Part shown: positions 10,927-59,126 of the stretch, piece by piece | Layout: each line of letters begins with the position of its first letter | Position numbering within the stretch: the first letter of the stretch is position 1 | Notes under the pieces: generated by a model | What the model saw: only the letters and a program-made list of their open reading frames with translations | What the model was told of the DNA's origin: nothing | The model's database searches: none | Position numbers and translations under genes: made by a program | Origin: a virus | Reading direction: 5' to 3' (one strand) | IMG/VR virus record: IMGVR_UViG_3300037424_001177 | Location: 1-64,000 of that record | DNA length: 64,000 bases

Positions 10927-11109
10927 TTTCTCACCTGTTGATGAAGAACAACTCCTGTGGGATTTCTGTGGACAGGACATCAACCCTGTTTAATGAAATA
11001 GTGTGGTTCATCGATTTTGGATTGACGTTGTCAGTCACTGTCCTGTAACTCGAAAACCCTGTCGGAGACTGCACACTCCGACTAGCTCTTGCTCTCAGGG
11101 AATTTTCGA

Positions 11110-18452: not shown

Positions 18453-18653
18453 ATGTCCGACCAGCAATTGATGTGTTTGAAGTGTCGTTGTCGTGACCTG
18501 GATCGATCGGGTCGTGAGCCCTATCGATTTATCTGCCGCGGGTGTGGACAGAACTACTTTGTGGTGTTGCAGATGGTTCCTGTCGACTCCGATGACGCTC
18601 GAGTTTTAGGTAACACATCACATGTCCCTGAACTCGGTACTCGAACAGGATAG
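18453..18653 (+). CDS. Zinc-ribbon protein
   Basis: CLKC...CRGCGQNY. Confidence 0.6.
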   Translation: MSDQQLMCLKCRCRDLDRSGREPYRFICRGCGQNYFVVLQMVPVDSDDARVLGNTSHVPELGTRTG

Positions 18654-19554
18654 CGCAGTTCGATTCCTGCGTTGTGTCGTAGACGGTCGTTGGGTTTCGC
18701 CTCTTTTGTTGGTAGGCGATGACGGCGTTGGCAAGAGGCTGTCGGTTACTGAAGCCTTCCTAGATTCTGTCGGGGACGATCCCGTACAGCGTCGACAGCT
18801 TGCTCACAACGCACATCCAGATTTCGTCGTAGTCAGTGCAGAAGCTGATCAAGAGATCGGCGTCGAAGCTGTGCGTGACACTACATCAGTTGTTTGCAAC
18901 TATCCGTTGCTAGCCCCACTGCGTTATGTCGTGGTCGACGGTGCTGACAGACTGACGATCGCAGCCGCTAACGCGTTTCTCAAGACGTTGGAAAGCGCAT
19001 CTCGAACAACGCGCTTTTTCCTTCTGGCAAATTCGGTGAAACAGGTCCTTCCGACCGTGCGCTCTCGTTGTGGGCTTGTTCGGTACAATCGCTTGAGCGA
19101 CACCCTTCTAACCGGTGTCTTGAGATCATTCGTTGATGAGGATCACAAAGCTCTTTTGTACGCACGCTTAGCGGAAGGCTCAGTGGGCCGAGCTGTGCAG
19201 CTTGCTAGCTCCAATCGCTTGAACCTTCGTGACCGTGTCGTCGAGATCTTGCGCGCCGGGATTCGTCGCGACTTGTCCTCATTGTTTTCGATTGTTGATG
19301 AGTTAGGTGATGACTTGATTTTGGGTCTGAGATTTCTTGAGCTTTTGGTGCAAGATCTTTTGGTCGTGTCACACGCACCTGCGAAATTGATCAATGTTGA
19401 TCTGGCTTCCTTGTTGTCTGAGTTGTCCAACACACTTGGACCGAAATCTGAAACCCTCTGGTTCGAGCTTCGTCAGGTGAGATCGAGTCATTCGGCGGCT
19501 CGTATTAACTTGACGTTTCATCTCAAGGCCGCACTGGCAACTGTATTTTCGTGA
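18622..19554 (+). CDS. holB: Clamp loader subunit delta-prime
   Basis: GDDGVGK, HPDF, IGVEAVR, AANAFLKTLE, LPTVRSRC, AEGSVGRA. Confidence 0.9.
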   Translation: MSLNSVLEQDSAVRFLRCVVDGRWVSPLLLVGDDGVGKRLSVTEAFLDSVGDDPVQRRQLAHNAHPDFVVVSAEADQEIGVEAVRDTTSVVCNYPLLAPLRYVVVDGADRLTIAAANAFLKTLESASRTTRFFLLANSVKQVLPTVRSRCGLVRYNRLSDTLLTGVLRSFVDEDHKALLYARLAEGSVGRAVQLASSNRLNLRDRVVEILRAGIRRDLSSLFSIVDELGDDLILGLRFLELLVQDLLVVSHAPAKLINVDLASLLSELSNTLGPKSETLWFELRQVRSSHSAARINLTFHLKAALATVFS

Positions 19555-20528
19555 TGGCTGCCAGAAAAAAGACGCGTCCGTTCCTCCTAGTTTATGGAGA
19601 CGAGGACTACCTGATCGACAAGGTATTCGAGACCAAGCGGTTTCTGTGGAAGAGCAAAAACAGGGTCGTTACTTACGTGGACGGATCCACGACGACGAGT
19701 GAGTCTCTGCATACTTTGTGTGAGACTCCACCTCTCTTTGAAAGTGGATCCCGCATTGTCGTTGTCGACAATGCGCAGGAATTGAAGCTCGGCAAAGAGT
19801 TCGTTACGTACCTGTCAGGGGCGTTTGACTCCACCTCGATGTCATTGGTGGCTTTCTACAGATCCGACAAGTTGACTGGGGGTTGGTCTGAAGTTGCAGC
19901 TCTTGCTGAGAAAGTGGAGATTTCAAAGTTCAAACCATGGGAGCGCGACAAGACAGTTCAGCGCATCACAGATGAAGCGACAGATCTTGGTTTGAAATTG
20001 GCAGATGGTGTAGCGCACAAGCTGTTTGCGTTTCATGGTGACAACCTTCGTGCTGTCGTGAATGAATTGAAGAAACTGCAATACCTCGTACAGCCCAAGG
20101 AAGTTGTCAGTCTACGCCAAGTCATGTTGGTGGCGTCTCCTGCGATACCTGTTGAACCTTATCAGGTCGCAGACGCCGTGATGCTGAGAGACGCGGGCAA
20201 GGCGATGAATCTGATCTCCAGACTCTACCTCCACATGGGGGATTCCGCTTGGGTCCCTGTTGTATTTTCTTGGATGAAGCAAGTTGAGCGCTTGCTTCTG
20301 GCGAAACACTTGCTTGATCGCAACGACTCTATTTCTGTGATTGCGGCACGTTTGGGCCAAAAAGAGTACGCCTGCAAAATGAACGTGATTCCGTTAACCA
20401 GTCGACACACTCAAGGTGTGTTGGTTGGTCAAATGAAAATCCTATGCAAACTCGAATCCCAAATCAAAGGGTCGGCCCGTTCCAAGAGAACGTTGGTCGA
20501 ATTGGCTGTACTTTCGGCGACTGCGTGA
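19551..20528 (+). CDS. holA: Clamp loader subunit delta
   Basis: LVYGDEDYLI, PPLF..RIVVV, NELKKL, IKGS..LVELAVL. Confidence 0.85.
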   Translation: MMAARKKTRPFLLVYGDEDYLIDKVFETKRFLWKSKNRVVTYVDGSTTTSESLHTLCETPPLFESGSRIVVVDNAQELKLGKEFVTYLSGAFDSTSMSLVAFYRSDKLTGGWSEVAALAEKVEISKFKPWERDKTVQRITDEATDLGLKLADGVAHKLFAFHGDNLRAVVNELKKLQYLVQPKEVVSLRQVMLVASPAIPVEPYQVADAVMLRDAGKAMNLISRLYLHMGDSAWVPVVFSWMKQVERLLLAKHLLDRNDSISVIAARLGQKEYACKMNVIPLTSRHTQGVLVGQMKILCKLESQIKGSARSKRTLVELAVLSATA

Positions 20529-20535
20529 GGACACG

Positions 20536-23500
20536 ATGGAACCACAAATTCAAATTGCAGATTCGAACGTTCAAACACAGATGTGTGTCGTCAAGCGCGA
20601 CGGCACGGCTGAGCCTGTAGACGTAAACAAGATCGTTCGTGCCGTCACACGATCCGCAACAGGTTTGCCTTCAGTGGACACGTTGCGTGTTGCACTCAAG
20701 ACCATAGGTGGTCTGTACGACCGTGCAACTACACAGGAGCTTGACGAGCTGTCGATTCGGACAGCAAGCAGTCTTATCGTTGAGGAACCGGAGTACTCCA
20801 AGCTGGCCGCTAGACTGTTGTCAGTTTACATCGACAAAGAGGTAACCGGTCAAGACATCTCCTCGTTTTCCCAATCCGTCTCAATTGGACATCAGTTGGG
20901 GCTGATCAGTGACCGTCTGGTCAAGTTTGTTGATCAGTCGAAGCGCAAATACAACATGAACATCGTGCCGGAGCGCACGGCAGAGTTTGAGTACTTTGGG
21001 CTTCGCACGTTGTACGACCGCTATCTGTTGCGTCATCCGGAGACACGTAAAGTCATCGAAACCCCGCAGCACTTCTTCATGCGCATTGCGTGTGCCCTTG
21101 CTAAGTCGACCGCAGAGGCTCTCGAGTTCTACCGCTTGTTTTCGACGCTGTCGTATCTGCCCAGTTCTCCGACTCTTTTCAATGCAGGTACGTGCCACGA
21201 GCAATTGTCGTCATGCTTTCTTCTCGATTCACCTCAGGACTCCTTGCAGAGCATTTACGATTCCTACGCTGCTGTGGCACAGCTGAGCAAGTTCTCTGGC
21301 GGGATCGGAATCTCGTATACGAGAGTACGGTCTCGTGGAAGCTTGATTGCGAGCACGAACGGCTATTCGAACGGCGTCATTCCGTGGCTGAAGACACTCG
21401 ATGCCTCGGTTGCAGCCGTGAATCAGTGTTTTGCGCCGGACACACTTGTGTTCACAGCTGATGGCGTCAAAGAGCTAAAAGATATCGCGGTGGGTGATTT
21501 GGTTTTGGGGCAACGAGGCTCTTACCGTGAAGTTTTGGACTGCTTGTCTTACCCACAATCCGGGCCAATGGTCGAAGTAGATGTGAAGCATTCCGTCAGG
21601 CCTTTACGTGTGACGTCGGGTCATCCATTTTGGGCAATACAGGGGATACCGCTTGAGCAGGGCTTGGATCGTACCATGTCGCAATTGCAGCGAGGTCTTC
21701 ACAAGATATTGTGGGTGGAAGCAGGTGATTTGAAGAAGGGGGACTATGTGGCGCAAGTGATCCCTACTGAGACTGTGCCTGTGGAGGCGTTCACCGAGGA
21801 TGATGCCCGTCTCTATGGGATCTTGTTGGGGGACGGACACATGTCGAAGGACGGCCTTGAGTACGGTGTGACAGGGAATCCGTCGGATGCCCATATGGAT
21901 TTTGTCCGTGGTTACCTAACTAAAATTGATGTTCATTTTTGGGAAACACGTGTAGCTAATCTGACTTGTCGCCAGATTCGGTGGGCTTCTGGTCGCGGTG
22001 TGCAGAGGAGTACTGAGAACGGACAATTTGTCTGTGCAGGATCGCCGACGCTACCTTTCACGTATCGAGATCTCTATGATGAAAATAAGTACAAGCGCAT
22101 CAGTCGTCGTTTTTCCCATTTACCGCCTGCGCAAACGCGTGCGCTCATTCACGGTCTTCTGGAAACCGATGGTTGTGTGAGTCGCGGCGCTGAGATTACT
22201 TTCACCAACACATCTCGTTCTTTGGTGGAGGGCCTGCGCTACCAACTTGTTCGTTTGGGAGTTCCATGTTCCGGACAGTATCGTGAGCGTGATCAGAATC
22301 ATTCGTTCATTAGCGGCAACGGGGAATTGACGTCGGTTCAAGGTGTTTCGAAGACCTATGATTTACGTATTCCCGCAGTGCCTGAGATTGCGGAGCTAGT
22401 TGGTTGTGTTCCTGTTATCAAACGTAATTGGTTTCAGTTGAACGGTTGTTTGTGGACACGTGTGCGGTCTGTTGGTGTGATTGTGCCGTTGCCTGTTGTG
22501 TATGACCTCAAAGTGGATGGGGATGAAACGTACATGACGTCGGCCGCATTGGTACACAACGGCGGGAAGCGCAAGGGAGCCTGTGCCGTGTATTTGGAGT
22601 CCTGGCACGCAGATATTCTCGAGTTCCTCGAGCTACGCGATGGCACTGGGGATCCTTCGAGGCGGACTCCGAATTTGCATTTGGCGAATTGGATCCCTGA
22701 CCTGTTCATGCAACGAGTCGAGGAGGACCTTGGCTGGAGTCTGTTCGACCCGAAACGCGTCCCTCATTTGACGGACTTGTGGGGAACGGAATTTGATGCC
22801 GCCTACGTGATAGCCGAGATGGACGGTTTGGCTTTGAAGACCGTCAAAGCCCGGGATCTGTACACTCGAATGTTGCGTACGTTGGCTGAGACGGGGAACG
22901 GATGGTTCACGTTCAAAGACAAGAGCAATCGCGCTTGCAATCAGACTTACAAGGGCGGGACTGTGCACCTTTCGAATTTGTGCACAGAGATTTTGGAAGT
23001 GACTTCAAATGACACAACTGCGGTTTGCAATCTCGGATCGATCAACCTGTCACGTCATTTGTCGGCGGGTGCGTTTGACTTTGAAGCTTTGGGCCGAACG
23101 GTCCGCTCAGCTATCCGTCAGTTGGATCGTGTGATCGATTTGAATTTCTATCCTGTTGAGAAGGCCAAAACATCCAATCGACGTTGGCGACCTGTGGGGT
23201 TGGGATTCATGGGTTTACAGGATGTCTTTTTCTCGCTTCGTTTGCCGTTCGACTCCCCTGAAGCCTTGAGCCTTTCGACCAAGATCTCGGAAGAGATCTA
23301 TTACCACGCCTTGTCGGCGTCGGCTGATTTGGCGGAGGAACTTGGACAACATCCGGCCTTTTCAGAGACTCGGACTTCGCAAGGGGAGCTACAGTTTGAC
23401 GCTTGGGGAGTCACGCCGTCTGATCCTGCTCGGTGGAGCGCTCTGTCTCAGCGCATCCAGAAGGTCGGGCTACGAAACTCGTTACTGATTGCTATTGCTC

Positions 23501-24096
23501 CGACTGCCACGATTGCATCGATTGCAGGGTGTTGTGAATGTTTGGAGCCTCAAGTCTCCAACCTGTTCAAGCGGGAGACCTTGAGCGGAGAGTTTTTGCA
23601 GGTCAACGCTTACTTAGCGTTCGACCTCAAACGCCTCGGTCTTTGGACCGAGGATATACGGGATCGTATCAAGGCTGCTGACGGGTCTGTGCACGACATC
23701 GCAGAGATCCCGAACGACCTGCGAGTGCTCTATCGGACGGCTTGGGAACTCTCACAGAGATCCCTGATTGATCTCGCCGCTGCACGGGGCCCCTACATCG
23801 ACCAGAGCCAGTCTCTCAACCTGTTCATGGAGAACCCGGACATAGGTCGAGCGTCGAGTATGTACATGTACGCTTGGAAGTCAGGACTCAAGACCACGTA
23901 CTACTTACGATCTCGCCCGGCTACTCGGATTGCGAAAACAACAACAATCCCCCCCAAAAACGGGAATGGCCACAGCGGCGGTAACGGCCACACAAACGGG
24001 CACGGCGGTAACGGCCATATTGCGGACGTAGAGCCCAGTGTTTTGTCGTGTTCCATCGAAAACGCCTACAGTGGCTCTTGTGAGGCTTGTCAGTGA
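20536..24096 (+). CDS. nrdA: Class Ia ribonucleotide reductase alpha subunit with ATP cone and intein
   Basis: VVKRDG ATP cone, SPTLFNAG, QLSSCFL, SNLCTEI, APTATIA, KTTYY, C-terminal CEACQ. Confidence 0.97.
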   Translation: MEPQIQIADSNVQTQMCVVKRDGTAEPVDVNKIVRAVTRSATGLPSVDTLRVALKTIGGLYDRATTQELDELSIRTASSLIVEEPEYSKLAARLLSVYIDKEVTGQDISSFSQSVSIGHQLGLISDRLVKFVDQSKRKYNMNIVPERTAEFEYFGLRTLYDRYLLRHPETRKVIETPQHFFMRIACALAKSTAEALEFYRLFSTLSYLPSSPTLFNAGTCHEQLSSCFLLDSPQDSLQSIYDSYAAVAQLSKFSGGIGISYTRVRSRGSLIASTNGYSNGVIPWLKTLDASVAAVNQCFAPDTLVFTADGVKELKDIAVGDLVLGQRGSYREVLDCLSYPQSGPMVEVDVKHSVRPLRVTSGHPFWAIQGIPLEQGLDRTMSQLQRGLHKILWVEAGDLKKGDYVAQVIPTETVPVEAFTEDDARLYGILLGDGHMSKDGLEYGVTGNPSDAHMDFVRGYLTKIDVHFWETRVANLTCRQIRWASGRGVQRSTENGQFVCAGSPTLPFTYRDLYDENKYKRISRRFSHLPPAQTRALIHGLLETDGCVSRGAEITFTNTSRSLVEGLRYQLVRLGVPCSGQYRERDQNHSFISGNGELTSVQGVSKTYDLRIPAVPEIAELVGCVPVIKRNWFQLNGCLWTRVRSVGVIVPLPVVYDLKVDGDETYMTSAALVHNGGKRKGACAVYLESWHADILEFLELRDGTGDPSRRTPNLHLANWIPDLFMQRVEEDLGWSLFDPKRVPHLTDLWGTEFDAAYVIAEMDGLALKTVKARDLYTRMLRTLAETGNGWFTFKDKSNRACNQTYKGGTVHLSNLCTEILEVTSNDTTAVCNLGSINLSRHLSAGAFDFEALGRTVRSAIRQLDRVIDLNFYPVEKAKTSNRRWRPVGLGFMGLQDVFFSLRLPFDSPEALSLSTKISEEIYYHALSASADLAEELGQHPAFSETRTSQGELQFDAWGVTPSDPARWSALSQRIQKVGLRNSLLIAIAPTATIASIAGCCECLEPQVSNLFKRETLSGEFLQVNAYLAFDLKRLGLWTEDIRDRIKAADGSVHDIAEIPNDLRVLYRTAWELSQRSLIDLAAARGPYIDQSQSLNLFMENPDIGRASSMYMYAWKSGLKTTYYLRSRPATRIAKTTTIPPKNGNGHSGGNGHTNGHGGNGHIADVEPSVLSCSIENAYSGSCEACQ
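21427..22560 (+). mobile_element. Intein (378 aa) with LAGLIDADG homing endonuclease; Gly at +1
   Basis: NQ|CFAPDT..., block B TSGHPF, GILLGDG and GLLETDG, VYDLKV, LVHN|GGKRKG. Confidence 0.93.
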
Positions 24097-37746: not shown

Positions 37747-38901
37747 ATGATCCGAACCTTTCGTTACCCTCTCCGGCCTACCAAGGCTCAGGCCACAACT
37801 ATCGAAGATTGGCTGCGGCATTGTCGTTGGTTGTACAACGGAGCGTTGGAAGAGAGGATCTCATACTACAGGAAATTTGGTAAAGGGCTCACAAGGATCG
37901 ATCAGCAAAAATCTCTCACGGAACTGCGCTCGGATGACCTCTCCTGGACACAGATCCCGCTGAACGTTCTCCGATCTTCTCTTCGGAAGCTCGAGTTAGC
38001 CTACCAAGGCTTCTTTCGGCGTTTGAAGAAGGGCGAGACGCCCGGCTTCCCACGCTTCAAAGGAGCTAATAGGTTTCGTTCGTTTTCTCTTCAAAAATCA
38101 ACTAAGGTTGAGCACAAGGTCAAAGGATCTCAAGCCAAGGTTTGGATCCCAAAACTTGGATGGGTGCACTTTCACGAATACCGACCTATCCAAGGTAAAC
38201 TTTTGGATGTCTCGCTCCGTAAGGAGCATGACGACCGATGGTTTGTTTGCTTCCAGTGTGATTTAGGCAAGGCACCTGAAGTTTCAATTGATCCAACGAA
38301 GTCGGTAGGGATCGATCTAGGACTCAGACATTTTGTGACCCTCTCAAATGGTGAGACAATCGAGAATCCTCGATTCTTTCGAAAGTCGGAGAAGGTGCTT
38401 GCCGAACGGCAGCGCACTTTGCAACGCAAGCGCCGTGGCTCCAACTCTCGAATAGTGGCCAATAGACTCGTTGCTAAGGCACATCTTTGGATCCGAAATC
38501 AACGACTCGATTTCTCTAGGAAGCTGTCTAAACAATTATTTACAAGATTTGATGTGATCTTCCACGAGGACCTCAACATCAAAGGGATGACACGATCCCT
38601 GAATTTTGGAAAATCAGTCAACGATGCTGCTTGGGGTATTTTTCTCCGATCCTTAGCTTACAAAGCGGAAGAAGCTGGTAAGCTCTTGATCGGAGTTGAT
38701 CCAAGAGGAACCACACAACGGTGCAGTGGCTGCGGTGAGCACGTCCCAAAGGGACGTGCTCACCGCAGCCACCTGTGTCCCTCGTGTGGGCTCAACTTGG
38801 ACCGGGATCACAATGCGGCCCTAAACATTCAAACGCTCGGCTTGAGCGTGGTACTAGAACACACGAGGCCGGTGAAGCTTGCTATCGGTGTTCTATCTTA
38901 A
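37747..38901 (+). mobile_element. tnpB: IS200/IS605-family TnpB RNA-guided endonuclease (no TnpA in window)
   Basis: FRYPLRPT, GFPRFK, RuvC motifs GIDLG / HEDL / DRDHNAALNI, Zn finger CSGC..CPSC. Confidence 0.95.
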
Positions 38902-43251: not shown

Positions 43252-44649
43252 ATGTGGGATGTTAGGTACAGGCCGCTGCGGTTCAGCGACGTGCTCGGCC
43301 AAGAGGGAGCCGTCCAAGTCCTGAAGTCGCGTTTGCGTCGAGGCACAGGGCTCGACACGAGCTACATTTTCAGTGGAGGAGCTGGACGCGGCAAAACAAC
43401 CCTGGCCCGCATCCTGGCCCGCGCTTTGTTGTGTCAGGCCCTAACTGAGGACTCTGAGCCGTGCAATCAGTGTGAAAACTGCCTCGATACACTGAATGAG
43501 ACTGCCCCGGCTTTGCAGGAGATGGACGCCGCTAGTCGAGGCACTATCGACAATGTCAGAGCCATTGTCGATAGCTTGCCGTTTTTGGTCGCAGGCGCGA
43601 CGAAACGAATTTACATTTTCGACGAAGTCCATCGCATGAGTCGGGACGCCCAGGATGTGCTTCTGAAGCCGTTGGAAGACAAACTACTAGTAGGTATTTT
43701 CTGTACTACGGAACCTGACAAGATACGGACACCGATCCGTTCCCGTTGTGAGGAGCACCAGATTCGGAGGATTACTCGGGAACACGTGTTTGCACGTCTT
43801 ACGTTGGTTCTTACTCAAGAGGGCGTGACGTACGAAGACGACGCTGTGTGGACGGTGGTGGACCACTCCTTGGGGCATGTGCGTGACGCTCTAAACACGT
43901 TGGAGATGCTAGCCCAGTTGGGTCCTGTCACGCTGACTTCGGCACGTGAGCACTTGAATCTATCGGATGTTGCACGGTACTATGAGATCCTATTGGCTCT
44001 TGGCGACACTCCCACAGCAGTACAGTTGATCGAGGAGATCTGTGATCGTGTTTCTCCGGAGACAGTTTCTGAGGGCTTGGCTGAGGCTGCGATGAACAGC
44101 TTTCGTCTGGCCAACAACATGGTAGCCGACTACTCACGTGTCGATCGTGACTTGGCGGCTCGTGTTTGGACTAAATACCAAGCCGGCGTGATCCGTTTGG
44201 TTGAATACTTGATGAAGCCTGGACGTGTTACACGATCAAGTTTGATCTGCGATGCTGTCTTGTGTGCTTCTGGCGCTCCTGACAGACCGACTCAGCCTTC
44301 AATTCCCAGTCTATCTGCCGTTATATCACCACAGGTCCCCCCGCTACAACACAATCCGGACAAGCTTGTCGTAGCGGCACCTACAGTGCTACAACACAAT
44401 CCAGCAAAGCTTGTCGTAGCGGCACCTACAGTGACTGGGTTGCGTGCAGACGGGATCGGAAATTTGGGATCCCCTGATGTGCAGGCGTTGACATCCATGG
44501 ATGTGGTGGCCGTTCCTCGAGAGGCGTCACGAGGACAGAAAACGGATCCAGTACCGAAGCCTAAAGTTCTCTCACGAGAAGGATTTTTGACGCCTCCGGA
44601 ATGGCGACTGAAATTTTGGCAACTCCACACCACTCTGGCAGGCGCGTAA
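43252..44649 (+). CDS. dnaX: Clamp loader gamma/tau subunit
   Basis: YRPLRFSDVLGQ, GRGKTT, PCNQCENC, EMDAAS, DEVHRMS, IRSRC. Confidence 0.95.
   Translation: MWDVRYRPLRFSDVLGQEGAVQVLKSRLRRGTGLDTSYIFSGGAGRGKTTLARILARALLCQALTEDSEPCNQCENCLDTLNETAPALQEMDAASRGTIDNVRAIVDSLPFLVAGATKRIYIFDEVHRMSRDAQDVLLKPLEDKLLVGIFCTTEPDKIRTPIRSRCEEHQIRRITREHVFARLTLVLTQEGVTYEDDAVWTVVDHSLGHVRDALNTLEMLAQLGPVTLTSAREHLNLSDVARYYEILLALGDTPTAVQLIEEICDRVSPETVSEGLAEAAMNSFRLANNMVADYSRVDRDLAARVWTKYQAGVIRLVEYLMKPGRVTRSSLICDAVLCASGAPDRPTQPSIPSLSAVISPQVPPLQHNPDKLVVAAPTVLQHNPAKLVVAAPTVTGLRADGIGNLGSPDVQALTSMDVVAVPREASRGQKTDPVPKPKVLSREGFLTPPEWRLKFWQLHTTLAGA
44343..44432 (+). repeat. 45-nt tandem repeat x2 in dnaX; each unit is an imperfect palindrome
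   Basis: LQHNPDKLVVAAPTV / LQHNPAKLVVAAPTV; GCTACAAC...GTCGTAGC. Confidence 0.9.
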
Positions 44650-44682
44650 TTTGTGGGCGAGCGAGACCCTAAGGTTCAGACA

Positions 44683-44763
44683 ATGATCCGAACCTTCCGT
44701 TACCCTCTCCGGCCTACCAAGGCTACAACACACAGGCAAGTTTTGCACGTCTGTGTGTTGTAG
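44683..44763 (+). pseudogene. tnpB: tnpB remnant: 5' 42 nt fused to a 13-bp hairpin
   Basis: 44683-44724 matches 37747-37788 at 41/42; followed by CTACAACACACAG...CTGTGTGTTGTAG. Confidence 0.85.
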
Positions 44764-44777
44764 TCGAAGTCTGGTTT

Positions 44778-46634
44778 ATGGACAAAGCCGGCGAATGGGT
44801 AGTCCTTGAGTTGAGCTCTCGTGGTGAGCAAGAGGACCCCAAGATCCTTTCGGACGCTATTACACGATCACTGAAGGGCGCTGAGGTATTTGTCCCGGCT
44901 GCTGTGTCTGTAGTCGGTGGCAGCCGAACCTATCAGTATTTGGTGGACGGCTACGCATTTGTCAAACTTGACGGTCGCCGTCGAACTGACGATTTCTTCA
45001 AACTCGAGGGCACCAAGTTCGTGACTTCCGTCCTGGTGAAACCCGGACACAATAGGACTTTGTCAACTGTAGGCGATGACGCTATACAGAAATTACAAAA
45101 TCAGATACACACGTTCACGGATCAGGGCATAGGTATTGGCGATGTCGTCGTGATCACTACAGGCATATATCATGGTTTGCAAGCTGACGTTTACGAGGAG
45201 ATACCGGAACGTGACATGGTACAAGTTCGTCTCAAGTTGAGATCCAAGGAAGCCTTGTTGACGATTCCTCGATCTGCCTTGCAAGTTGTGGAGCGAGCCA
45301 CGTGGTCCAATCAGCGCGATCGTATTGATCTTTTGCTGAAGTGGACTCGTGACACCCAAGTGATTTTCTGTTGGAACTCTTTGACGCCGGATCTTTTGGT
45401 GAGTGTCTATCGGGATTTTCGATCTGTCAATCAGTGGTACGTTTCTGGTCGTTATTTGTGCGGATTCTTGGCTTTTGATACCACGATTCGGCAACAATGG
45501 CAGTTGTTGAATCGTGATTGTGTCGGCTACAACCGTCTCCATCGTCTGGAGAGTCGTGGACATTTGTTGTGTGCGTTTGTTGTCGCGTATCGTTTGTCCG
45601 AGACTGGCCTGCGAACGATACGTCAGTGGTGGCGCCACCTAAAACATGTGGCGAGCATAGTTGAGCGTTTGCAGAGACTTTGGGAAGAGGTCGACAACTT
45701 GTCACGACAGTTTTCGTCACAACAAGAGGATGGAGGGAAGTTGATACACAACGTCATCGTAGACGGTCACGCTTTGGCGTACCGTTGCTTCTACGCTAAA
45801 GGCCTGAACACTCTGACACATCAAGGGGAGCCGTCCGGAGCCGTCCTCGGATTTTTTCGCAGCTTGGCTTCGCTCCGAAAGCGTTACTCGACTGCGGCCT
45901 TGCGGGTGGTGTGGGATGGGTCCTCTGCACGTCGCAAGGCCCGATATACCGCCTACAAGGCCACGAGGAAGTCTCAGGACATCTCGTGGGTGGTTGCTAC
46001 GCTGCGCACACTGCTACCAGTTGTAGGGGTCAGACAACACTGGAACCCTGCTGAGGAGGCGGATGATGTGATTGCGACTTTGGTGAGGCACGATCTGGTT
46101 GATCAGAACAACCTCATCTTTTCGTCGGACCGGGATTTCCTACAGTTGGTTACTGACCGTACACATGTTTTGGTGCCAGCTACGGGTGCACGTAATGAAG
46201 TGCTCTTTGATCCTGCGGAGGTATCTCGTCGCTTTGGGGTACCACCTGGAAAGATGCTCGAATTGCGAGCTATGTTTGGTGACTCGAGCGATAATTTGAC
46301 CGGTGTCTGTCGAGTGCCGAAGAAAGTGCTCACGGATCTCTTGAAAGCCTACGGCTCTGTTGACAGGGTCTATCAGTCCGGGCTGGCGTCTGTGACAAAG
46401 GCGCAGTATGCTCGTTTGCAGACTGCGGAGTCGACAGTCAAGTTGAACCTGGAACTGATGTCCCTACAGGACGTGGACGTAACAACGATCTCTGCGGAGC
46501 CTGATCAAGCCTCCGCCACCAGACGTTTGCAGTCCATTGGCATACAATCTGAAGGTTTGTTGTCTGCATTTTTTCCGCAGTCGGATGTCGTAGTTGGTAA
46601 CGACTCGCAGGACTACATGTCACTTGCGATTTAA
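44778..46634 (+). CDS. NusG-like (NGN+KOW) domain fused to a FEN/Pol I-type 5'-3' exonuclease
   Basis: WVVL..EVFVP..DGYAFV, KOW IGDVVVITTGIYHG; IVDG, VWDG, YKATR, EADD, SSDRD, GDSSDN. Confidence 0.85.
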   Translation: MDKAGEWVVLELSSRGEQEDPKILSDAITRSLKGAEVFVPAAVSVVGGSRTYQYLVDGYAFVKLDGRRRTDDFFKLEGTKFVTSVLVKPGHNRTLSTVGDDAIQKLQNQIHTFTDQGIGIGDVVVITTGIYHGLQADVYEEIPERDMVQVRLKLRSKEALLTIPRSALQVVERATWSNQRDRIDLLLKWTRDTQVIFCWNSLTPDLLVSVYRDFRSVNQWYVSGRYLCGFLAFDTTIRQQWQLLNRDCVGYNRLHRLESRGHLLCAFVVAYRLSETGLRTIRQWWRHLKHVASIVERLQRLWEEVDNLSRQFSSQQEDGGKLIHNVIVDGHALAYRCFYAKGLNTLTHQGEPSGAVLGFFRSLASLRKRYSTAALRVVWDGSSARRKARYTAYKATRKSQDISWVVATLRTLLPVVGVRQHWNPAEEADDVIATLVRHDLVDQNNLIFSSDRDFLQLVTDRTHVLVPATGARNEVLFDPAEVSRRFGVPPGKMLELRAMFGDSSDNLTGVCRVPKKVLTDLLKAYGSVDRVYQSGLASVTKAQYARLQTAESTVKLNLELMSLQDVDVTTISAEPDQASATRRLQSIGIQSEGLLSAFFPQSDVVVGNDSQDYMSLAI

Positions 46635-46654
46635 CTCTTCGTGGAGGTAAGCAC

Positions 46655-47317
46655 GTGAGCACTGCTGGATATGTGATCTCGATTGACCCGATGAGATTGG
46701 CTACCCGATTCTCTTCTGAAGACGACGCCTTTTTTGCTGACGACACAGGTGACAGTGTCGATGCTGATTCTATCGAAGGCGTCAGTACCGAGGATTTGGA
46801 AGAGTTCTTTGCCACTAGTTCGTACGAAGAGAAAATCATGCCACTGTTGGACCGTATCCCGGGGCGTGAGGCTGACTTGATTTTGCTTTACTACATTTTG
46901 CGGAAGAAGCAGGCCGACATTGCAGCGATCTTCGAAGTGACGCAGGCGGCTGTCAGCTACCGACTCGCTCGCGGGATCAAACGACTGAAATTCTTGTTGA
47001 GCATACCGCAGGTCACGGAAGAGGACATGCGCACTGATTTGGCATCACTGTTCAGTCCTCGAGACACCAACATTTTGGTGGGCATGTGGCAGACCACCTG
47101 TCAGTCTGAAGTGGCTTTGCGCTTGCATATTCCACAGAGTGGTGTGCGACACTATTTTTTTCGTGCTGTTGATCGCTTGAAAAGCGCAGCCGGAGAAGAT
47201 CCAAAGTACGTTCCGTATGAGAAGATTTTCAGCACTATTGCTGCGAAAAATTTTAATATCTTGCGCGCCGTATCGTTGCCCCAGTGGGCAAATAGGGGTG
47301 GAAACGTTTGTGAGTGA
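46655..47317 (+). CDS. Protein with two sigma-70 region-4-like HTHs and an acidic N-terminus
   Basis: IPGREADLILLYY..QADIAAIFEVTQAAVSYRL and SPRDTNIL..QSEVALRLHIPQSGVRHYF. Confidence 0.8.
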   Translation: MSTAGYVISIDPMRLATRFSSEDDAFFADDTGDSVDADSIEGVSTEDLEEFFATSSYEEKIMPLLDRIPGREADLILLYYILRKKQADIAAIFEVTQAAVSYRLARGIKRLKFLLSIPQVTEEDMRTDLASLFSPRDTNILVGMWQTTCQSEVALRLHIPQSGVRHYFFRAVDRLKSAAGEDPKYVPYEKIFSTIAAKNFNILRAVSLPQWANRGGNVCE

Positions 47318-47588
47318 CGTGATTACTGCTGATTCTGTGGAAGCTGTCAGTATCCGAGTTGCGAAAGCTCTCGACGTTGCAGTGAACGGTCCGCGCATTT
47401 TTTACGGACAAGGCTGTTTTGTTGTCGCTAAGTGCAAGACAGGTAAGCACATTCTCAGGGGGGGTTTGGGTGCGCTTGGGGTTGGTCAGATGTGGTTCGA
47501 GACGACTGACGACGACCGTAACGCCCCAGAATTTGACCACTTGCCGGTCACGCTCTGCGAGGACTGCTCGGCTGACGCCGTTGCGTAA
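47310..47588 (+). CDS. Hypothetical Cys-containing protein
   Basis: SD GGGGTGG before GTG; C..GKH...CEDC. Confidence 0.55.
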   Translation: MSDVITADSVEAVSIRVAKALDVAVNGPRIFYGQGCFVVAKCKTGKHILRGGLGALGVGQMWFETTDDDRNAPEFDHLPVTLCEDCSADAVA

Positions 47589-47595
47589 TCACACT

Positions 47596-47607
47596 AATTC
47601 GTTTGTT
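47596..47607 (+). promoter_or_regulatory. Late-type promoter-like motif at the start of the structural block
   Basis: AATTCGTTTGTT begins 26 nt before GTG 47622. Confidence 0.5.
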
Positions 47608-47621
47608 CATTTGCCGAGTTT

Positions 47622-48527
47622 GTGGCGATCTCGGCAGCCAGTATCAGCGTTCAGGACGTAGGATTTAGCACTACTGTCGCAGGACGCGTCTGGCGTTGGA
47701 AGACCCGACTGGATGTCACGGGCGCATATCCTGTGTACGCCGTTGTTGAGATCGTGACACCGTTTGGGTTGTTTCGCGACACTATACCTTTGCCTGGTGA
47801 GGTGGTTCAAGCGATGAGCGAGTCTATTGACACGCTCAAGGCGACCTACAAACCGAGGATCTTGGTCGGGCCTCCAACGTCCCTTGGGTTTGCTGTTGAT
47901 GAGGGTCGCGGACTGTCAGTGACCCAAACGGTCTTGGTCGCCAACAACGGCACGTTTGGTTCGTTGTTGAACGCCGTCCTTACTTCGTCGGCACCGTACA
48001 TTCAAGCCACGCCAGGCTCGGTAGGAAATTTAGCGTCCAATGAGTCAGGGTCGTTCAGTGTGGCTGTCGATTCCACGGACTTGGTGGCCTCCAGTAGCCC
48101 CTATTCCGGGATGATTACTGTGCAGGACCCCACAGCTCTAAACACGCCACAGACGGTTCCTGTGCTCATCTCTGTGAGACCCAAGGCTGTCATCGTATTG
48201 TCGACGCCGTTGGTTCAATTCAGTGTCGTACGTCCGATAAGCGGACCGTTCCCGGTCGTCCCCAGTCAGCAATTCAATGTGTCGAACACAGGGGCATCTG
48301 GTTCGGTTCTCGAGTTTCAAGTAGCTCGACTGACGGGCCTGTCACTCTCGTGGCTTTCTTCATTCACGCCTGTGTCTGGTACAGTGACGACAGGGGTACA
48401 GGCCGTGAGTATTTTGGTTGAGCCTGTTGATGGGTTGTTGCCTGGGACGTACGAAGAGACACTTCGTGTTTCGGGGTACAGTTTGAACAACTACGTGGAC
48501 GTTTCGGTTCGACTGGTGGTTACATGA
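47622..48527 (+). CDS. Virion protein with two Ig/BACON-like domains
   Basis: Repeated VxNxG..GSxL..W/Y..PxSG..GxY..(I/L)xV pattern. Confidence 0.65.
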   Translation: MAISAASISVQDVGFSTTVAGRVWRWKTRLDVTGAYPVYAVVEIVTPFGLFRDTIPLPGEVVQAMSESIDTLKATYKPRILVGPPTSLGFAVDEGRGLSVTQTVLVANNGTFGSLLNAVLTSSAPYIQATPGSVGNLASNESGSFSVAVDSTDLVASSSPYSGMITVQDPTALNTPQTVPVLISVRPKAVIVLSTPLVQFSVVRPISGPFPVVPSQQFNVSNTGASGSVLEFQVARLTGLSLSWLSSFTPVSGTVTTGVQAVSILVEPVDGLLPGTYEETLRVSGYSLNNYVDVSVRLVVT

Positions 48528-56194: not shown

Positions 56195-58029
56195 TGGCCT
56201 ACTCAAATTTTCCGAGACGATATTCTGCTGTGATTCAGGTTCCAGATTCGCGTAGCTTGACCAAGCCCTACGTGTCTGGGGCGTACAGTAGCCAGCTGAC
56301 GTTCAAGGAGCGTCTTGCCCGTCGTGTTCAGTCGAGTGGGGCTTTGGGTGGGTTCGGACTCAGCAGCATGGGTCTTGGAGGCGGAACAGGGATTGGTTTG
56401 GGTGCTGCTGGTGGGACCATGCAAAGCTCCCAGAGCAACTTCTACAGCCCCCAGCTATCCACGGACTTCCTCGAGCTGCCGCAAAGCGTTCGTGAGCGAC
56501 GAGAGATTTTCCGGCACTTCTACAACTCGGATGAGATAGTCGGACAAGCCATTGACATCCACACAGAGCTTCCTCTCTCGAAAGTTCGACTGACTGCCCC
56601 GAAACCCCTCAAAGCACCAGAGGGTTTCAGCTCACCGGAGAATTACGGGAAATACATTCTCAGTCGTTTCGAGCGCATGTGCAAGAAGATCAAGTTGTTC
56701 CAACGACTGATCACGATCGTACATCACTACTGGCTCGATGGCGTCACGTGCATTTTTGCCGAGGACTCGTCGGTTGAAGTCCCGGAAGACGTGGGTCGCA
56801 CAAAGAAGACGATCAAGGAAGCTGTCTTGCGTGAGGATGGAACTACATTCGACCAAGACAAGACAATTTGGGAAGACACCCCCGAGACGGATGCGGCCGA
56901 ATCAGCTTACTACAAGAAACACTATGTGGGGTGGGATCGACTGATAGTAATACCTATTGATAAAGTGAAAATCACCACGTTCAGCTACAGTGATCGTCCT
57001 CTTATTGAGTTGATTCCGTCTGAGCGCGACCGTCAAATGATTGAGCGCGCGAAAACCGGAGATGTCGACGCGAAAAAATTGGTTGAACAAATTCCGAATG
57101 AGGTCCGAAGTTGTCTCGAAGCGGGCAAGACAATACCGCTTGGCACCGATCCAGACAAAGGATCGTTCGGTTACATTTTGACCGGCAGCAAAGACGCTGA
57201 CATCAGTATCGGTCAACCAATATTGGGGAGATGCCTTAGATCCTTGATCTATATTGATAAGCTCCGACAGGCTCAGACGTCCATCGCGTCTCGGGCAATG
57301 ACACCTAAGCGCATCGTATGGGCCGAAGGGTTGAGCGACATCGATACTGACGCGTTGCGTGAGCAGGTGGATCTGGCGCTCGTCGATCCTGACTACTCGA
57401 TTGTCGCCAATTACGAAGTCCACTGGGAGGAGATGGGGGCCCGAGATCGTCTCCTGGATTTGTCAGCGGAGTACGAACAAGTCCAACGTAGAATCTTGGC
57501 AGGTCTCGGCGTGACGGAAAGTTTGATGTCTGGGGAGTCTTTGTACTCCGGTGACCGTCTTAAGCTTGAAGTCATCAATCAACGTTACTTGCATCTTCGG
57601 GAGATCTTGCAGGAGTACGTCGAGGAGTACCTTTTCCGCCCGATAGCAAGGCGCATGGGATTCATTGAGGAGGACGAGTGGGGGCAGGAAGTCGTGTTGT
57701 GTCCGAAGCTGTCTTTCACACGCTTGCCGTTGAGGGATAGCCAAGACACATTCAACGACCTCTACAATCTGTACTCGAAGGGGTCGATCTCAATCGACCT
57801 CATTCTTGAGACGTTGAATATCGACCCTGGCGATACGAAGTCCAAAATCGAACGTGATCTTTTCACGGTCAACGACGCTATATTCAACGAGGTCTTGCGT
57901 TCGCTTTACAACGAAGTGGGGCGTCTCTTGGTCGACAAGACAGACGTCTTGGAGCGTATTTCCAAGTACCTGAAGCTCGAGATGAACTCCAAAGATGAAG
58001 CCCTACCGGAAGAAGGTCGGTTCGGGTGA
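56194..58029 (+). CDS. Portal protein
   Basis: About 610 aa, FY..DEIVGQAID.HTELPLS, G.PIL.R, ILAGLGV; lies between terL and the protease. Confidence 0.8.
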   Translation: MAYSNFPRRYSAVIQVPDSRSLTKPYVSGAYSSQLTFKERLARRVQSSGALGGFGLSSMGLGGGTGIGLGAAGGTMQSSQSNFYSPQLSTDFLELPQSVRERREIFRHFYNSDEIVGQAIDIHTELPLSKVRLTAPKPLKAPEGFSSPENYGKYILSRFERMCKKIKLFQRLITIVHHYWLDGVTCIFAEDSSVEVPEDVGRTKKTIKEAVLREDGTTFDQDKTIWEDTPETDAAESAYYKKHYVGWDRLIVIPIDKVKITTFSYSDRPLIELIPSERDRQMIERAKTGDVDAKKLVEQIPNEVRSCLEAGKTIPLGTDPDKGSFGYILTGSKDADISIGQPILGRCLRSLIYIDKLRQAQTSIASRAMTPKRIVWAEGLSDIDTDALREQVDLALVDPDYSIVANYEVHWEEMGARDRLLDLSAEYEQVQRRILAGLGVTESLMSGESLYSGDRLKLEVINQRYLHLREILQEYVEEYLFRPIARRMGFIEEDEWGQEVVLCPKLSFTRLPLRDSQDTFNDLYNLYSKGSISIDLILETLNIDPGDTKSKIERDLFTVNDAIFNEVLRSLYNEVGRLLVDKTDVLERISKYLKLEMNSKDEALPEEGRFG

Positions 58030-59126
58030 TAAGGCATCCTGACCACGTTTCGGGGTCGCTGATCTTAGCTCCGAAGTCGATGACCAAGAGGGCCATACGT
58101 ATTTCTGGCAACCGACACCTCGTTGTAACGGACGTTTACGACCTGTATTGGTTTTTCGCGTACGCTCGTCAGGACATCTTTTATCGTCGAGTCGCCGGAG
58201 AGGATCCTCCGTGGACTACGAACCCGATCTTCAATAGGTACCGTTTTTGTAATGTGTATCGAGTGTCGGACCGCGTGAGCCAGTACTTGATCCGACACGT
58301 GATCTACGAAGGGATCCAGTCGCCTGAGGAGATCCTTTTCCGAATCATGCTTTTTCGGGTGTTCAACAAGATCGAGACTTGGGAATGGTTGGTTTCACAA
58401 CACGGTGAGTTGACGTGGAAAACTTTCTCATACCAATTGTACGCAAGGTCGTTGGACTTGTTGAAGGTCTATGGAGAGCCCGTCTACAACCATGCTTACA
58501 TACTCCCGTGTCCAAACATTGACAATTTGAGGTGCAAGCACCATGCACATTTGCGGCTGTTGGAGCAGTCGATGTTGGGTGAGCTGCCGATGCTTGTGTA
58601 CACGGCTGACACGTTTGAAACCCTTTACCGAAGGATTCATGCGATCCCGTCGTTTGGACCGTTCCTCGCTTTCCAGTTGGCCATCGACATCAACTATAGC
58701 CCGATCTGTAATTTTTCCGAGAACGACTACGTCGTTGCGGGGCTTGGCGCCAAAGACGGGATCCGGAAGTGCTTCACAGACATTGGGGACTTGTCGGAAG
58801 CGGACATCATCAAGGTCGTCTGTGATAGAGCCGAAGAGGAGTTCCATTCCCGAGGCCTACTCTGGAAGGGCTTGTGGGGACGCCCCCTGCAACTGATCGA
58901 TTGTCAGAACTTGTTCTGCGAGATCGGTAAGTACTCCCGGGCTTCACATCCCGCTTTCAAAGGGATGCTTAAGCGCGTCAGAATCAAGAATCGCTACCGT
59001 CCTAAGCCATTTCCTGTACCTCAGTGGTATCCGCCGAAGTGGGGTCTTGTGCCTGATCCGACGAACATGATGCGACAAGGTTCCGCTGGATACCTGCACG
59101 AGCAGCTGGCACCGCGTTCTGCATAG
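58026..59126 (+). CDS. aGPT-Pplase1 / 5-hmdU DNA kinase-like protein
   Basis: RQ.IF.RR..G..PPWT.NPI...YRFCNVYR..DRVS, FR.FNKIETW, GPFLAFQ..ID, QN.FCE..KY. Confidence 0.85.
   Translation: MIRHPDHVSGSLILAPKSMTKRAIRISGNRHLVVTDVYDLYWFFAYARQDIFYRRVAGEDPPWTTNPIFNRYRFCNVYRVSDRVSQYLIRHVIYEGIQSPEEILFRIMLFRVFNKIETWEWLVSQHGELTWKTFSYQLYARSLDLLKVYGEPVYNHAYILPCPNIDNLRCKHHAHLRLLEQSMLGELPMLVYTADTFETLYRRIHAIPSFGPFLAFQLAIDINYSPICNFSENDYVVAGLGAKDGIRKCFTDIGDLSEADIIKVVCDRAEEEFHSRGLLWKGLWGRPLQLIDCQNLFCEIGKYSRASHPAFKGMLKRVRIKNRYRPKPFPVPQWYPPKWGLVPDPTNMMRQGSAGYLHEQLAPRSA

What the first reader, a model, noticed from the sequence alone, without database searches (positions are those of the whole stretch)
44778..46634. 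NusG (NGN-KOW) fused to an intact 5'-3' exonuclease: possible phage torpedo or co-transcriptional nuclease
Seen: one 618-aa ORF has an N-terminal NusG-like NGN and KOW module, a roughly 150-aa helical linker, and a FEN/Pol I-type 5'-3' nuclease with its acidic motifs present (DG, WDG, EADD, DRD, GDSSDN). An in-frame GGAGG-N4-TTG at 45741 could also yield the free nuclease. Known: NusG/Spt5 rides on elongating RNA polymerase. In eukaryotes Spt5 helps recruit the related-fold 5'-3' exonuclease Xrn2/Rat1 for torpedo termination, and the T4 RNase H/T5 D15 family removes primers. Inference: the phage tethers a 5' nuclease to host RNA polymerase for termination, host mRNA decay or R-loop/primer processing. 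I do not know this architecture from the literature.
Basis: partly seen in the sequence, partly recalled or inferred. Interest (0 to 1): 0.85.

Follow-up and report, generated by a model that had tools for sequence, protein, structure and literature searches.

The report
Huge-phage NusG fused to flap nuclease
A family of uncultured phages with genomes of roughly 450-500 kb joins an RfaH-like copy of NusG, the factor that rides on RNA polymerase, to their only DNA-replication flap nuclease in one protein; this suggests an undescribed and testable physical link between phage late transcription and DNA replication.

Summary
ORF 44778-46634 (618 aa) has four parts: a NusG-type NGN-KOW module, a coiled coil of about 145 aa, a complete Pol I/FenA-type flap nuclease, and an in-frame GGAGG-N4-TTG at the junction. 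The NusG assignment rests on a PDB profile search that hits only NusG chains and on a fold search whose top 28 hits are NusG, RfaH or Spt5.

It is not an assembly artefact. Of 84 loci, 72 are fused, 4 are split into coupled adjacent genes, and 8 distant ones carry a stand-alone NusG-like gene in the same slot. All lie between a clamp-loader gene and a double sigma-region-4 gene, at the border between replication genes and head/packaging genes. Complete relatives (437-529 kb) encode no RNA polymerase, a family A DNA polymerase, and exactly one 5' nuclease, which is this one.

The NGN carries the RfaH-type Phe needed for polymerase binding. The KOW lacks NusG's Rho-contact loop.

My best reading is a specialised NusG paralogue that leashes the phage's flap nuclease to host RNA polymerase on replicating DNA. 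The torpedo idea is possible but not favoured. No paper I searched describes this architecture. This scan has met the same family before on at least six other genomes.

The parts
44778..46634 (+). Whole NusG-coiled coil-FEN gene (618 aa, P0001)
   Evidence: conserved as one ORF in 72 of 84 related loci
44790..45074 (+). NGN domain (residues 5-99), with invariant W7, F38, P40, L55, Y59 and F61
   Evidence: AF2 and Foldseek hits to NusG/RfaH/Spt5; PDB profile hits only NusG; F61 aligns with RfaH F56; mean pairwise identity 0.51
45075..45125 (+). Connecting helix between NGN and KOW (residues 100-116, Q109 invariant)
45126..45293 (+). KOW domain (residues 117-172), the most conserved part of the protein; the loop L154-R155-S156 replaces NusG's I164-F165-G166
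   Evidence: identity 0.61
45300..45737 (+). Helical coiled-coil linker (residues 175-320), poorly conserved and variable in length
   Evidence: helices 175-197, 204-272 and 275-317; identity 0.21 and length 77-191 aa across the family; no structural relatives; stays with the NusG half in split relatives
45732..45743 (+). In-frame GGAGG-N4-TTG (codon 322), a candidate internal start for a free nuclease
   Evidence: homologous to the GGAG-N6-GTGA start of the separate FEN gene in L007; start-type codon at this position in 41 of 58 fused genes, but no SD signal beyond synonymous shuffles
45750..46238 (+). FEN catalytic domain (residues 325-487) with the helical-arch motif RRK..Y..YKA.R and all metal-binding acidic residues
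   Evidence: Pfam PF02739 E 2.7e-31; invariant D329, D380, E426, E427, D429, D430, D451, D453; FenA 6c33 TM 0.78
46239..46472 (+). H3TH / SAM-fold DNA-binding domain of the nuclease (residues 488-565), with GDSSDN
   Evidence: Pfam PF01367 E 4.9e-11; D502 and D505 invariant
46473..46577 (+). C-terminal extension (residues 566-600) with the conserved (I/L)LxxFF
   Evidence: pLDDT about 88; inside the alignment that covers nearly all of FenA (313 of 317 columns), so probably part of the fold and not a free clamp-binding tail
46578..46634 (+). Disordered, unconserved tail (residues 601-618) plus the stop codon
   Evidence: pLDDT 34-41; identity 0.12
46655..47317 (+). Downstream partner gene: a 220-aa protein with two sigma-70 region-4 stretches and no region 2
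   Evidence: Pfam; PHROG sigma-factor families; FliA regions 3-4; TIGR02937 above its cut-off; present in 84 of 84 loci
43252..44649 (+). Upstream DnaX-like clamp-loader ATPase, part of the conserved cassette
   Evidence: present in 82 of 84 loci
44683..44724 (+). 42-nt copy of the 5' end of tnpB (37747-37788) within the 128-nt leader of the gene
   Evidence: 41 of 42 identical; in most relatives dnaX and the fusion gene abut or overlap

Best explanation
The gene encodes a specialised, RfaH-like NusG paralogue of a huge phage, joined by a variable coiled-coil leash to the phage's only Pol I-type 5' flap nuclease. The proposed mechanism has four steps.

1. The NGN domain docks on the beta' clamp helices of host RNA polymerase elongation complexes. 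This is inferred from fold, profile homology, the RfaH-type Phe, and the constant pairing with a sigma-like gene.

2. Together with the adjacent double sigma-4 protein, it serves transcription of the long head/packaging (late) operons that start just downstream. This is inferred from gene position.

3. The leash keeps an active flap nuclease within roughly 100 Å (from helix lengths) of the polymerase as it travels on replicating phage DNA. Nuclease activity is inferred from the intact catalytic residues and fold. There the nuclease would remove RNA or 5' flaps: R-loop RNA behind the polymerase, and unprocessed Okazaki primers or flaps that the polymerase meets. Late transcription and lagging-strand maturation would thus be physically coupled. 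The substrate is inference.

4. A free nuclease may also be made from the internal start at codon 322 for bulk primer removal. This is plausible but unproven.
For: NusG identity: a PDB profile search hits only NusG (5.9e-9). Foldseek's top 28 hits are NusG, RfaH or Spt5 across both NGN and KOW. The deep HMMER search grades into stand-alone NGN-KOW proteins of 165-190 aa, some of which pass the Pfam NusG or KOW cut-offs.

RNAP link: F61 aligns with RfaH F56, the residue required for RNAP binding. NGN-KOW is fused to a full sigma factor (regions 2 and 4) in another phage. A sigma-4 gene lies next door in 84 of 84 loci, and in L084 it overlaps the stand-alone NusG-like gene by 4 nt. Five complete genomes have no RNAP beta' domain.

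Specialised paralogue: the Rho-contact loop I-F-G is replaced by invariant L-R-S, much as RfaH has L-I-N.

Active replicative nuclease: all catalytic acidic residues and the arch motif are invariant. FenA TM is 0.78 and the Pol I N-terminal match is E 2.5e-48. Each complete genome has exactly one PF02739 match, at this locus, beside a family A polymerase and with no RNase HI, DnaE or PolB. The gene sits in a replication cassette of primase, clamp loader and ligase.

Selected linkage: 72 fused loci at 35-95% identity. The 4 split forms keep order, adjacency and translational coupling. The fused and split forms together make one clade. The KOW (0.61) and FEN (0.55-0.59) are equally well conserved.

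Position: large terminase, portal and head protease follow downstream.
Against: There is no direct evidence for RNAP binding, and the host is unknown. The Pfam NusG score is below the gathering threshold. The covalent link was lost at least twice, and a sister lineage has the NusG-like gene but no FEN at all, so the tether is not essential to either function. Linker length (77-191 aa) and sequence (21% identity) are loosely constrained. That fits a leash, but it also fits a neutral connector. The substrate (R-loop, primer or flap) is pure inference. If most nuclease is made free from the internal start, the fused isoform could be minor.
Confidence: 0.45

Rival explanations
1. Reverse (T4-like) coupling. 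The FEN domain recognises nicks and flaps that exist only on replicating DNA. It thereby concentrates the NusG module, the sigma-4 partner and host RNA polymerase on replicated templates, so that late gene expression depends on replication. T4 achieves this with its sliding clamp, gp33 and gp55, and Mu with the beta clamp.
For: The cassette is clamp loader, NusG-FEN, then the sigma-like gene, exactly at the border between replication and late genes. Published precedents exist for clamp-dependent late transcription (PMC7892883, PMC2988020, PMC12867686). The split-sigma-like neighbour recalls gp33/gp55.
Against: NusG-family proteins act on elongation complexes, not at promoters. I found no free clamp-binding peptide: the conserved C-terminal (I/L)LxxFF seems to be part of the FenA-like fold. 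No sliding clamp was detected in complete genomes. All catalytic residues are invariant, which a pure DNA-structure sensor would not need.
Confidence: 0.2
2. The two functions are independent, and the fusion only ensures co-expression. An elongation factor and a replication nuclease that happened to be neighbours were merged, and no mechanism depends on their being linked.
For: At least two independent fissions were tolerated. The sister lineage keeps the NusG-like gene without any FEN. A conserved Met or start codon sits at the junction. The linker is poorly conserved.
Against: A coiled coil of about 145 aa appears only in FEN-bearing lineages, while stand-alone forms are 183-190 aa. In split forms the coiled coil stays with the NusG half, and the two genes remain adjacent and translationally coupled. 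The fusion has persisted down to 35% identity in at least 56 distinct fused sequences.
Confidence: 0.15
3. Torpedo or nascent-RNA nuclease. The RNAP-tethered 5'-3' nuclease degrades nascent RNA to terminate transcription or to destroy host transcripts. This would be a single-polypeptide analogue of Spt5-FttA or Spt5-Xrn2.
For: Spt5 bridges the termination nuclease FttA to the archaeal elongation complex (PMC11616081), and that complex's Spt5 chain (9bct_G) is among the fold hits. The KOW has lost the Rho-contact loop, so a Rho-independent route to termination would be useful.
Against: The nuclease is a Pol I/FenA-type structure-specific flap enzyme with an arch that threads free 5' ends. It is not an Xrn- or beta-CASP-type RNase. 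By established knowledge of this family, activity on single-stranded RNA is poor. It is the only replicative 5' nuclease in the genome. The variable linker length argues against a fixed path from the RNA exit channel to the active site.
Confidence: 0.1
4. The NGN-KOW module has been re-purposed and does not bind RNA polymerase. It might, for example, anchor the nuclease to a replisome or ribosomal partner.
For: The Pfam NusG score is below threshold. The KOW partner surface differs from NusG's. The gene is embedded in the replication module.
Against: The RNAP-binding Phe is conserved. The module is fused to sigma in another phage. The sigma gene is an invariant neighbour. Fold matches are exclusively to RNAP-bound factors.
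Confidence: 0.07

Closest known systems
Specialised NusG paralogues (RfaH, LoaP, UpxY, ActX/TaA)
   Same: NGN plus a single KOW. RfaH-type Phe at the RNAP-binding position (F61 aligns with F56). NusG's Rho-contact loop is lost. Encoded beside the genes it presumably serves. Weak sub-threshold NCBIfam hits to RfaH, UpxY and nusG.
   Different: Carries a coiled coil of about 145 aa and a complete nuclease at its C-terminus. Encoded by a phage and paired with a sigma-like gene. No ops-like recruitment element is known. The main review of NusG diversity mentions no fusion with a nuclease.
Pol I 5' nuclease domain and stand-alone bacterial FENs (M. smegmatis FenA, E. coli ExoIX/Xni)
   Same: Same fold (FenA TM 0.78, RMSD 2.9 Å), the same catalytic acidic residues, the same arch and H3TH. 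Likely the same role in removing RNA primers.
   Different: Attached to an RNA-polymerase factor and not to a DNA polymerase. Most members have RVPKK where the H3TH normally has GIGxKTA.
Archaeal Spt5-FttA and eukaryotic Spt5-Xrn2/Rat1 termination complexes
   Same: A NusG/Spt5 factor physically links a 5'-3' nuclease to the elongation complex (PMC11616081).
   Different: There the link is non-covalent and the nucleases are RNA-specific (beta-CASP or Xrn). Here the link is covalent and the nuclease is a DNA-structure-specific FEN. No termination role has been shown.
T4 gp45-gp33-gp55 and the phage Mu beta-clamp late-transcription systems
   Same: A replication component is used to tie late transcription to replication. 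Sigma function is split into small proteins. The genes sit at the border between replication and late genes (PMC7892883, PMC2988020, PMC12867686).
   Different: The coupling part here would be a flap nuclease on an elongation factor, not a sliding clamp on an initiation factor. No clamp or clamp-binding motif was found.
Phage replicative 5' nucleases (T5 D15, T7 gp6, T4 RNase H)
   Same: A separate 5' nuclease serves a phage polymerase that lacks one. These are more distant fold matches (T5 1.7e-12, T4 RNase H 1.5e-8).
   Different: Those are free-standing enzymes, and none carries a transcription-factor module.

Membership tests
NusG/Spt5 family | NGN fold followed by a KOW beta-barrel | tested here: met
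   AF2 pLDDT 89. Top 28 Foldseek PDB hits are NusG, RfaH or Spt5 over 172-186 columns.
NusG/Spt5 family | Significant sequence homology to NusG | tested here: met
   The single sequence is below the Pfam cut-off (17.4 against 22.2 bits). The family profile hits only NusG chains in the PDB, best 5.9e-9. Some relatives pass the Pfam NusG or KOW cut-offs.
NusG/Spt5 family | Hydrophobic RNAP (beta' clamp helix) binding surface | tested here: inconclusive
   One key position could be tested: F61 aligns with RfaH F56, which is required for RNAP binding, and it is nearly invariant. The full surface could not be mapped because no model coordinates were available and no complex could be predicted.
NusG/Spt5 family | Binds elongating RNA polymerase | not testable with these tools
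   Needs biochemistry or a prediction of the complex with the (unknown) host's RNAP.
Housekeeping NusG | KOW loop I164-F165-G166 that contacts Rho | tested here: not met
   It aligns with invariant L154-R155-S156. The residue roles come from PMC7593976.
Specialised NusG paralogues (NusG-SP, RfaH-like) | Rho contact lost, together with a high-affinity Phe in the NGN | tested here: met
Specialised NusG paralogues (NusG-SP, RfaH-like) | Sequence-specific recruitment (ops-like element) and fold-switching autoinhibition | not tested
   No candidate element was sought. The model shows a beta-barrel KOW.
Pol I-type 5' nuclease / FEN (PF02739 + PF01367) | Both Pfam domains above their gathering thresholds | tested here: met
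   108.9 bits (cut-off 34.3) and 43.4 bits (cut-off 40)
Pol I-type 5' nuclease / FEN (PF02739 + PF01367) | Complete set of metal-binding acidic residues and the basic/aromatic helical arch | tested here: met
   D329, D380, E426, E427, D429, D430, D451, D453, D502, D505, R386, Y393, K394 and R397 are invariant in 35 sequences.
Pol I-type 5' nuclease / FEN (PF02739 + PF01367) | FEN fold | tested here: met
   FenA 6c33 E 3e-16, TM 0.78, RMSD 2.9 Å over 313 columns
Torpedo termination nucleases (Xrn2/Rat1, FttA, RNase J) | Processive 5'-3' exoribonuclease activity on single-stranded nascent RNA | not testable with these tools
   The fold class differs (FEN, not Xrn or beta-CASP). Activity needs an assay.
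Clamp-tethered FEN (PIP-box or beta-clamp motif) | Free, disordered C-terminal clamp-binding peptide | tested here: not met
   (I/L)LxxFF is conserved. However, it has pLDDT of about 88 and lies inside the FenA-like fold alignment. No clamp was found in complete genomes.

The most novel reading that the evidence does not exclude
The full-length protein is a true co-transcriptional nuclease. Riding on host RNA polymerase through its RfaH-like NGN, it would cut RNA or flaps at the elongation complex, either clearing R-loops or primers or terminating transcription. That would make it the first covalent NusG-nuclease machine, and a bacterial-virus counterpart of Spt5-FttA and Spt5-Xrn2.
Probability: 0.3. 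Interest if true: 0.9.

Novelty: new variant of a known kind. Interest (0 to 1): 0.68.

Why it matters
NusG/Spt5 is the only transcription factor conserved in all domains of life, and its KOW end is known as an adaptor for non-covalent partners such as Rho, the ribosome and FttA. Here a whole clade of huge phages has hard-wired an active DNA-replication nuclease onto it, and has moved the 5' nuclease that normally belongs to DNA polymerase I onto an RNA-polymerase factor.

If the tether works as proposed, it offers a simple and tractable system for studying how transcription and replication are coordinated on one template: R-loop removal, Okazaki maturation ahead of RNA polymerase, or replication-dependent late gene expression.

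Nature has also supplied controls: split forms, stand-alone forms and sigma-fused forms. The practical weakness is that no cultured member is known.

Tried and rejected
1. C-terminal clamp-binding (PIP-like) motif. The conserved (I/L)LxxFF looked promising. It is confidently modelled and lies inside the FenA-like fold alignment, and no beta clamp was found. Rejected as a free motif.

2. Codon-level selection for an internal Shine-Dalgarno sequence. Anti-SD pairing upstream of codon -3 averages -4.90 kcal/mol, identical to synonymous shuffles. There is no independent RNA-level signal, so the SD-like sequence may simply follow from the G/E/D-rich junction.

3. The neighbour as a small terminase. 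PHROGs and the PDB give sigma factors only.

4. The linker as a known domain. There are no Atlas or Pfam relatives.

5. The fusion in deposited phage genomes. tblastn found only the nuclease part, and no record covered 80% of the query.

6. Cellular genomes. One MAG contig among 185,579 species genomes.

7. Phage-encoded RNAP, DnaE, PolB and RNase HI. None was found in complete relatives.

8. Literature. There are no papers with 'NusG' plus 'huge phages'. The six papers with 'NusG' plus 'flap endonuclease' do not look relevant from their titles and abstracts. The jumbo-phage survey and the NusG review are both silent on this architecture.

9. Promoter and terminator scan of 44400-47700. Nothing above shuffled expectation.

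Full report
**Observation.** The window holds an uninterrupted ORF at 44778-46634 on the + strand (ATG start, 618 aa). Pfam places a Pol I-type 5'-3' exonuclease at residues 326-487 (E 2.7e-31) and its SAM/H3TH domain at 488-565 (E 4.9e-11). The NusG match at 6-106 scores 17.4 bits, below the 22.2-bit cut-off. The in-frame GGAGG (45732-45736), 4 nt, then TTG (45741-45743, codon 322) is as described.

**Is the N-terminal half really NusG?** Yes, on three grounds.
- A HMMER search of 1.84 billion representative proteins with residues 1-325 found 232 hits. The best were full-length fusions, grading into stand-alone proteins of 165-190 aa that cover query residues 6-170. Some of those pass the Pfam NusG or KOW thresholds.
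- A profile of the module (A4) hits only NusG chains in the PDB, the best being Thermotoga NusG at 5.9e-9, spanning NGN through KOW.
- An AF2 model of residues 1-322 (pLDDT 89) shows an NGN (6-99), a helix (100-114), a five-stranded KOW (123-172) and then three long helices. Its top 28 Foldseek hits in the PDB are all NusG, RfaH or Spt5.

**Residue-level tests.** I fetched E. coli nusG and rfaH by reference and aligned them with the family (A5). PMC7593976 states that RfaH F56 (Leu in NusG) is required for RNAP binding, and that the NusG loop I164-F165-G166 makes the key contacts with Rho and was lost early in RfaH.
- The family's nearly invariant F61, in G-Y-A-F-V, aligns with RfaH F56.
- Its invariant L154-R155-S156 aligns with the Rho loop.

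The module therefore looks like a specialised paralogue. It is built to hold RNAP tightly, and its KOW has a partner other than Rho. That KOW is the most conserved part of the protein, at 0.61 mean pairwise identity.

**The nuclease.**
- The full-length model (pLDDT 82; nuclease 92-97) superposes on M. smegmatis FenA (TM 0.78, RMSD 2.9 Å, 313 of 317 columns). ExoIX, Taq Pol I, T5 FEN and, more distantly, T4 RNase H follow.
- NCBIfam's best match is the N-terminus of DNA polymerase I (E 2.5e-48).
- Five complete or near-complete relatives (437-529 kb, three with terminal repeats) each have exactly one PF02739 match, at this locus.
- In a second set of five relatives, overlapping the first, four have a family A polymerase and none has DnaE, PolB or RNase HI.
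- The window's own record is a 159-kb viral contig rated 33% complete, and it also has just this one match.

The domain is therefore the replisome's 5' nuclease, detached from the polymerase.

**Conservation and context.**
- Word-indexed and exhaustive protein searches found dozens of clusters of 590-690 aa with both halves, at 35-93% identity.
- A pattern scan of IMG/VR found 114 contigs with a relative, many of them 230-530 kb.
- I classified 84 loci: 79 from that scan, four from other assemblies, and the window itself. Of these, 72 are fused, 4 are split, and 8 carry a stand-alone NGN-KOW gene of 183-190 aa.
- The cassette is nearly invariant: Toprim primase, phage metallopeptidase, DnaX-like clamp loader, [NusG-FEN], sigma-like gene. 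The sigma-like gene is present in 84 of 84 loci and DnaX in 82 of 84.
- Only one of 185,579 species genomes has a relative, on a MAG contig, and no deposited phage genome holds the fusion.

**The neighbour.** The protein encoded at 46655-47317 has two sigma-70 region-4 stretches and no region 2. It matches phage sigma-factor PHROGs and regions 3-4 of FliA, and does not match terminase families. Downstream come the large terminase, portal and head protease. The pair therefore sits at the border between replication genes and late genes.

**Natural variants that inform function.**
- Split forms. In L007, which is seen on three contigs from two samples, a 312-aa NGN-KOW-coiled-coil gene ends in GGAG-N6-GTGA, and that GTG starts a 289-aa FEN gene. 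The start falls immediately before the conserved N-V-I-V-D-G, at the position homologous to the window's GGAGG-N4-TTG.
- Tree. A quick maximum-likelihood tree of the NGN-KOW module puts all fused and split genes on one side of a 100%-supported branch and the stand-alone genes on the other. The splits are nested in at least two separate supported places (the careful search did not finish). The fusion is thus ancestral to the clade and was undone at least twice, always keeping order, adjacency and translational coupling, with the coiled coil staying on the NusG half.
- Stand-alone forms. In the 497-kb, 94%-complete relative, the NusG-like gene overlaps the sigma-4 gene by 4 nt, and that genome has no Pol I-type FEN at all. 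The conserved core is therefore NusG-like plus sigma-like, and the coiled coil plus FEN is an addition.
- Sigma fusion. In an unrelated phage contig the same module is fused to a complete sigma factor with regions 2 and 4 (P0102). This is an independent Rosetta-stone link to RNA polymerase.

**Internal start.** Exactly 3 codons before N-V-x-V-D-G, 41 of 58 unique fused genes carry ATG, GTG or TTG, and 33 of those are Met. An SD plus start occurs near the junction in 43% of genes, against 12.7% of control windows. The SD-like pairing is fully explained by the amino-acid sequence, however: observed and synonymous-shuffle energies are both -4.90 kcal/mol. This is either a fossil of the FEN gene's original start or a working internal start, and sequence alone cannot decide.

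**Linker.** It is predicted to be helical but is poorly conserved (21% identity), varies from 77 to 191 aa, and has no structural relatives. That fits a leash or spacer better than a precise docking device. It also argues against a fixed path from the RNA exit channel to the nuclease active site, of the kind seen for FttA (PMC11616081).

**Interpretation.**
- Shown: a real, conserved, phage-restricted architecture; a NusG-family NGN-KOW with RfaH-like hallmarks; a catalytically complete flap nuclease that is the only one in the genome; invariant pairing with a sigma-like gene; and no phage RNA polymerase.
- Inferred: the NGN binds host RNAP, the pair serves late transcription, and the leash brings the nuclease to RNA-DNA or flap structures on transcribed, replicating DNA.

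**Novelty.** JGI's automatic annotation already names some members '5'-3' exonuclease/transcription antitermination factor NusG'. I found no paper that describes the architecture, and NCBIfam has no model for it. Earlier notes of this scan report the same family on at least six other genomes, with similar verdicts. I did not use them as evidence.
- the placement of the split forms as secondary fissions;
- the stand-alone sister lineage that lacks a FEN;
- the sigma-NGN fusion;
- the two residue-level tests;
- the synonymous-shuffle control;
- the rejection of a clamp-binding motif.

**Limits.** The host is unknown. No complex prediction and no model coordinates were available. The IMG/VR loci were retrieved through two peptide patterns, so the counts are lower bounds and are biased towards close relatives. 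The tree is the quick version.

Noticed in passing
window 44683-44724 (and 37747-38901): The 128-nt leader of the fusion gene holds a 42-nt copy (41 of 42 identical) of the first codons of the tnpB gene at 37747. In relatives, dnaX and the fusion gene abut or overlap, so this looks like a local insertion or footprint of the IS605-type element.
   Followed up: partly
window 46655-47317 and 11089-12288: The neighbour has two sigma region-4 stretches and no region 2. A 399-aa protein at 11089-12288 gives only a weak, sub-threshold Sigma70_r2 match (E 0.0024).
   Followed up: partly
L001:3612-5237 (P0102): In an unrelated phage-like JGI contig that also encodes Ku, a complete sigma-70 (regions 2 and 4) is fused to the same NGN-KOW module. 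Sigma region 2 and the NGN both use the beta' clamp helices, so this could be a hand-over in cis at promoter escape.
   Followed up: partly
window 18622-20528 and 43252-44649; complete relatives G006-G010: The phage encodes a full clamp-loader set (delta', delta and a DnaX-like ATPase). Yet no beta-clamp domain was found in the 159-kb record or in five complete relatives, and the replicative polymerase is family A, not DnaE. The clamp is either very divergent or borrowed from the host.
   Followed up: partly
window 20536-24096: The large subunit of ribonucleotide reductase (1186 aa) is interrupted by an intein with a LAGLIDADG homing-endonuclease domain (Hint, Intein_splicing and LAGLIDADG_3 matches at about 298-675).
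   Followed up: no
window 44343-44432: Two tandem 45-nt copies (93% identical) lie inside the 3' end of the DnaX-like gene, giving a 15-residue in-frame duplication.
   Followed up: no
window 58026-59126: A 5-hmdU DNA kinase (PF18723, E 2e-97) lies among the head genes, which suggests that this phage's thymidines are hypermodified.
   Followed up: no
G006:C1:296443-298908 and G001:C1:166128-168671: In two relatives the family A polymerase match is split into two pieces within open frames of more than 1400 aa, which suggests an intein or a large insertion in the polymerase.
   Followed up: no
A1 alignment, P0001 residues 509-516: Most family members have RVPKK where Pol I-type nucleases have the GIGxKTA hairpin of the H3TH motif, while a sub-clade keeps the canonical G-x-G-x-KTA. 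This may mean altered binding of the downstream duplex.
   Followed up: no
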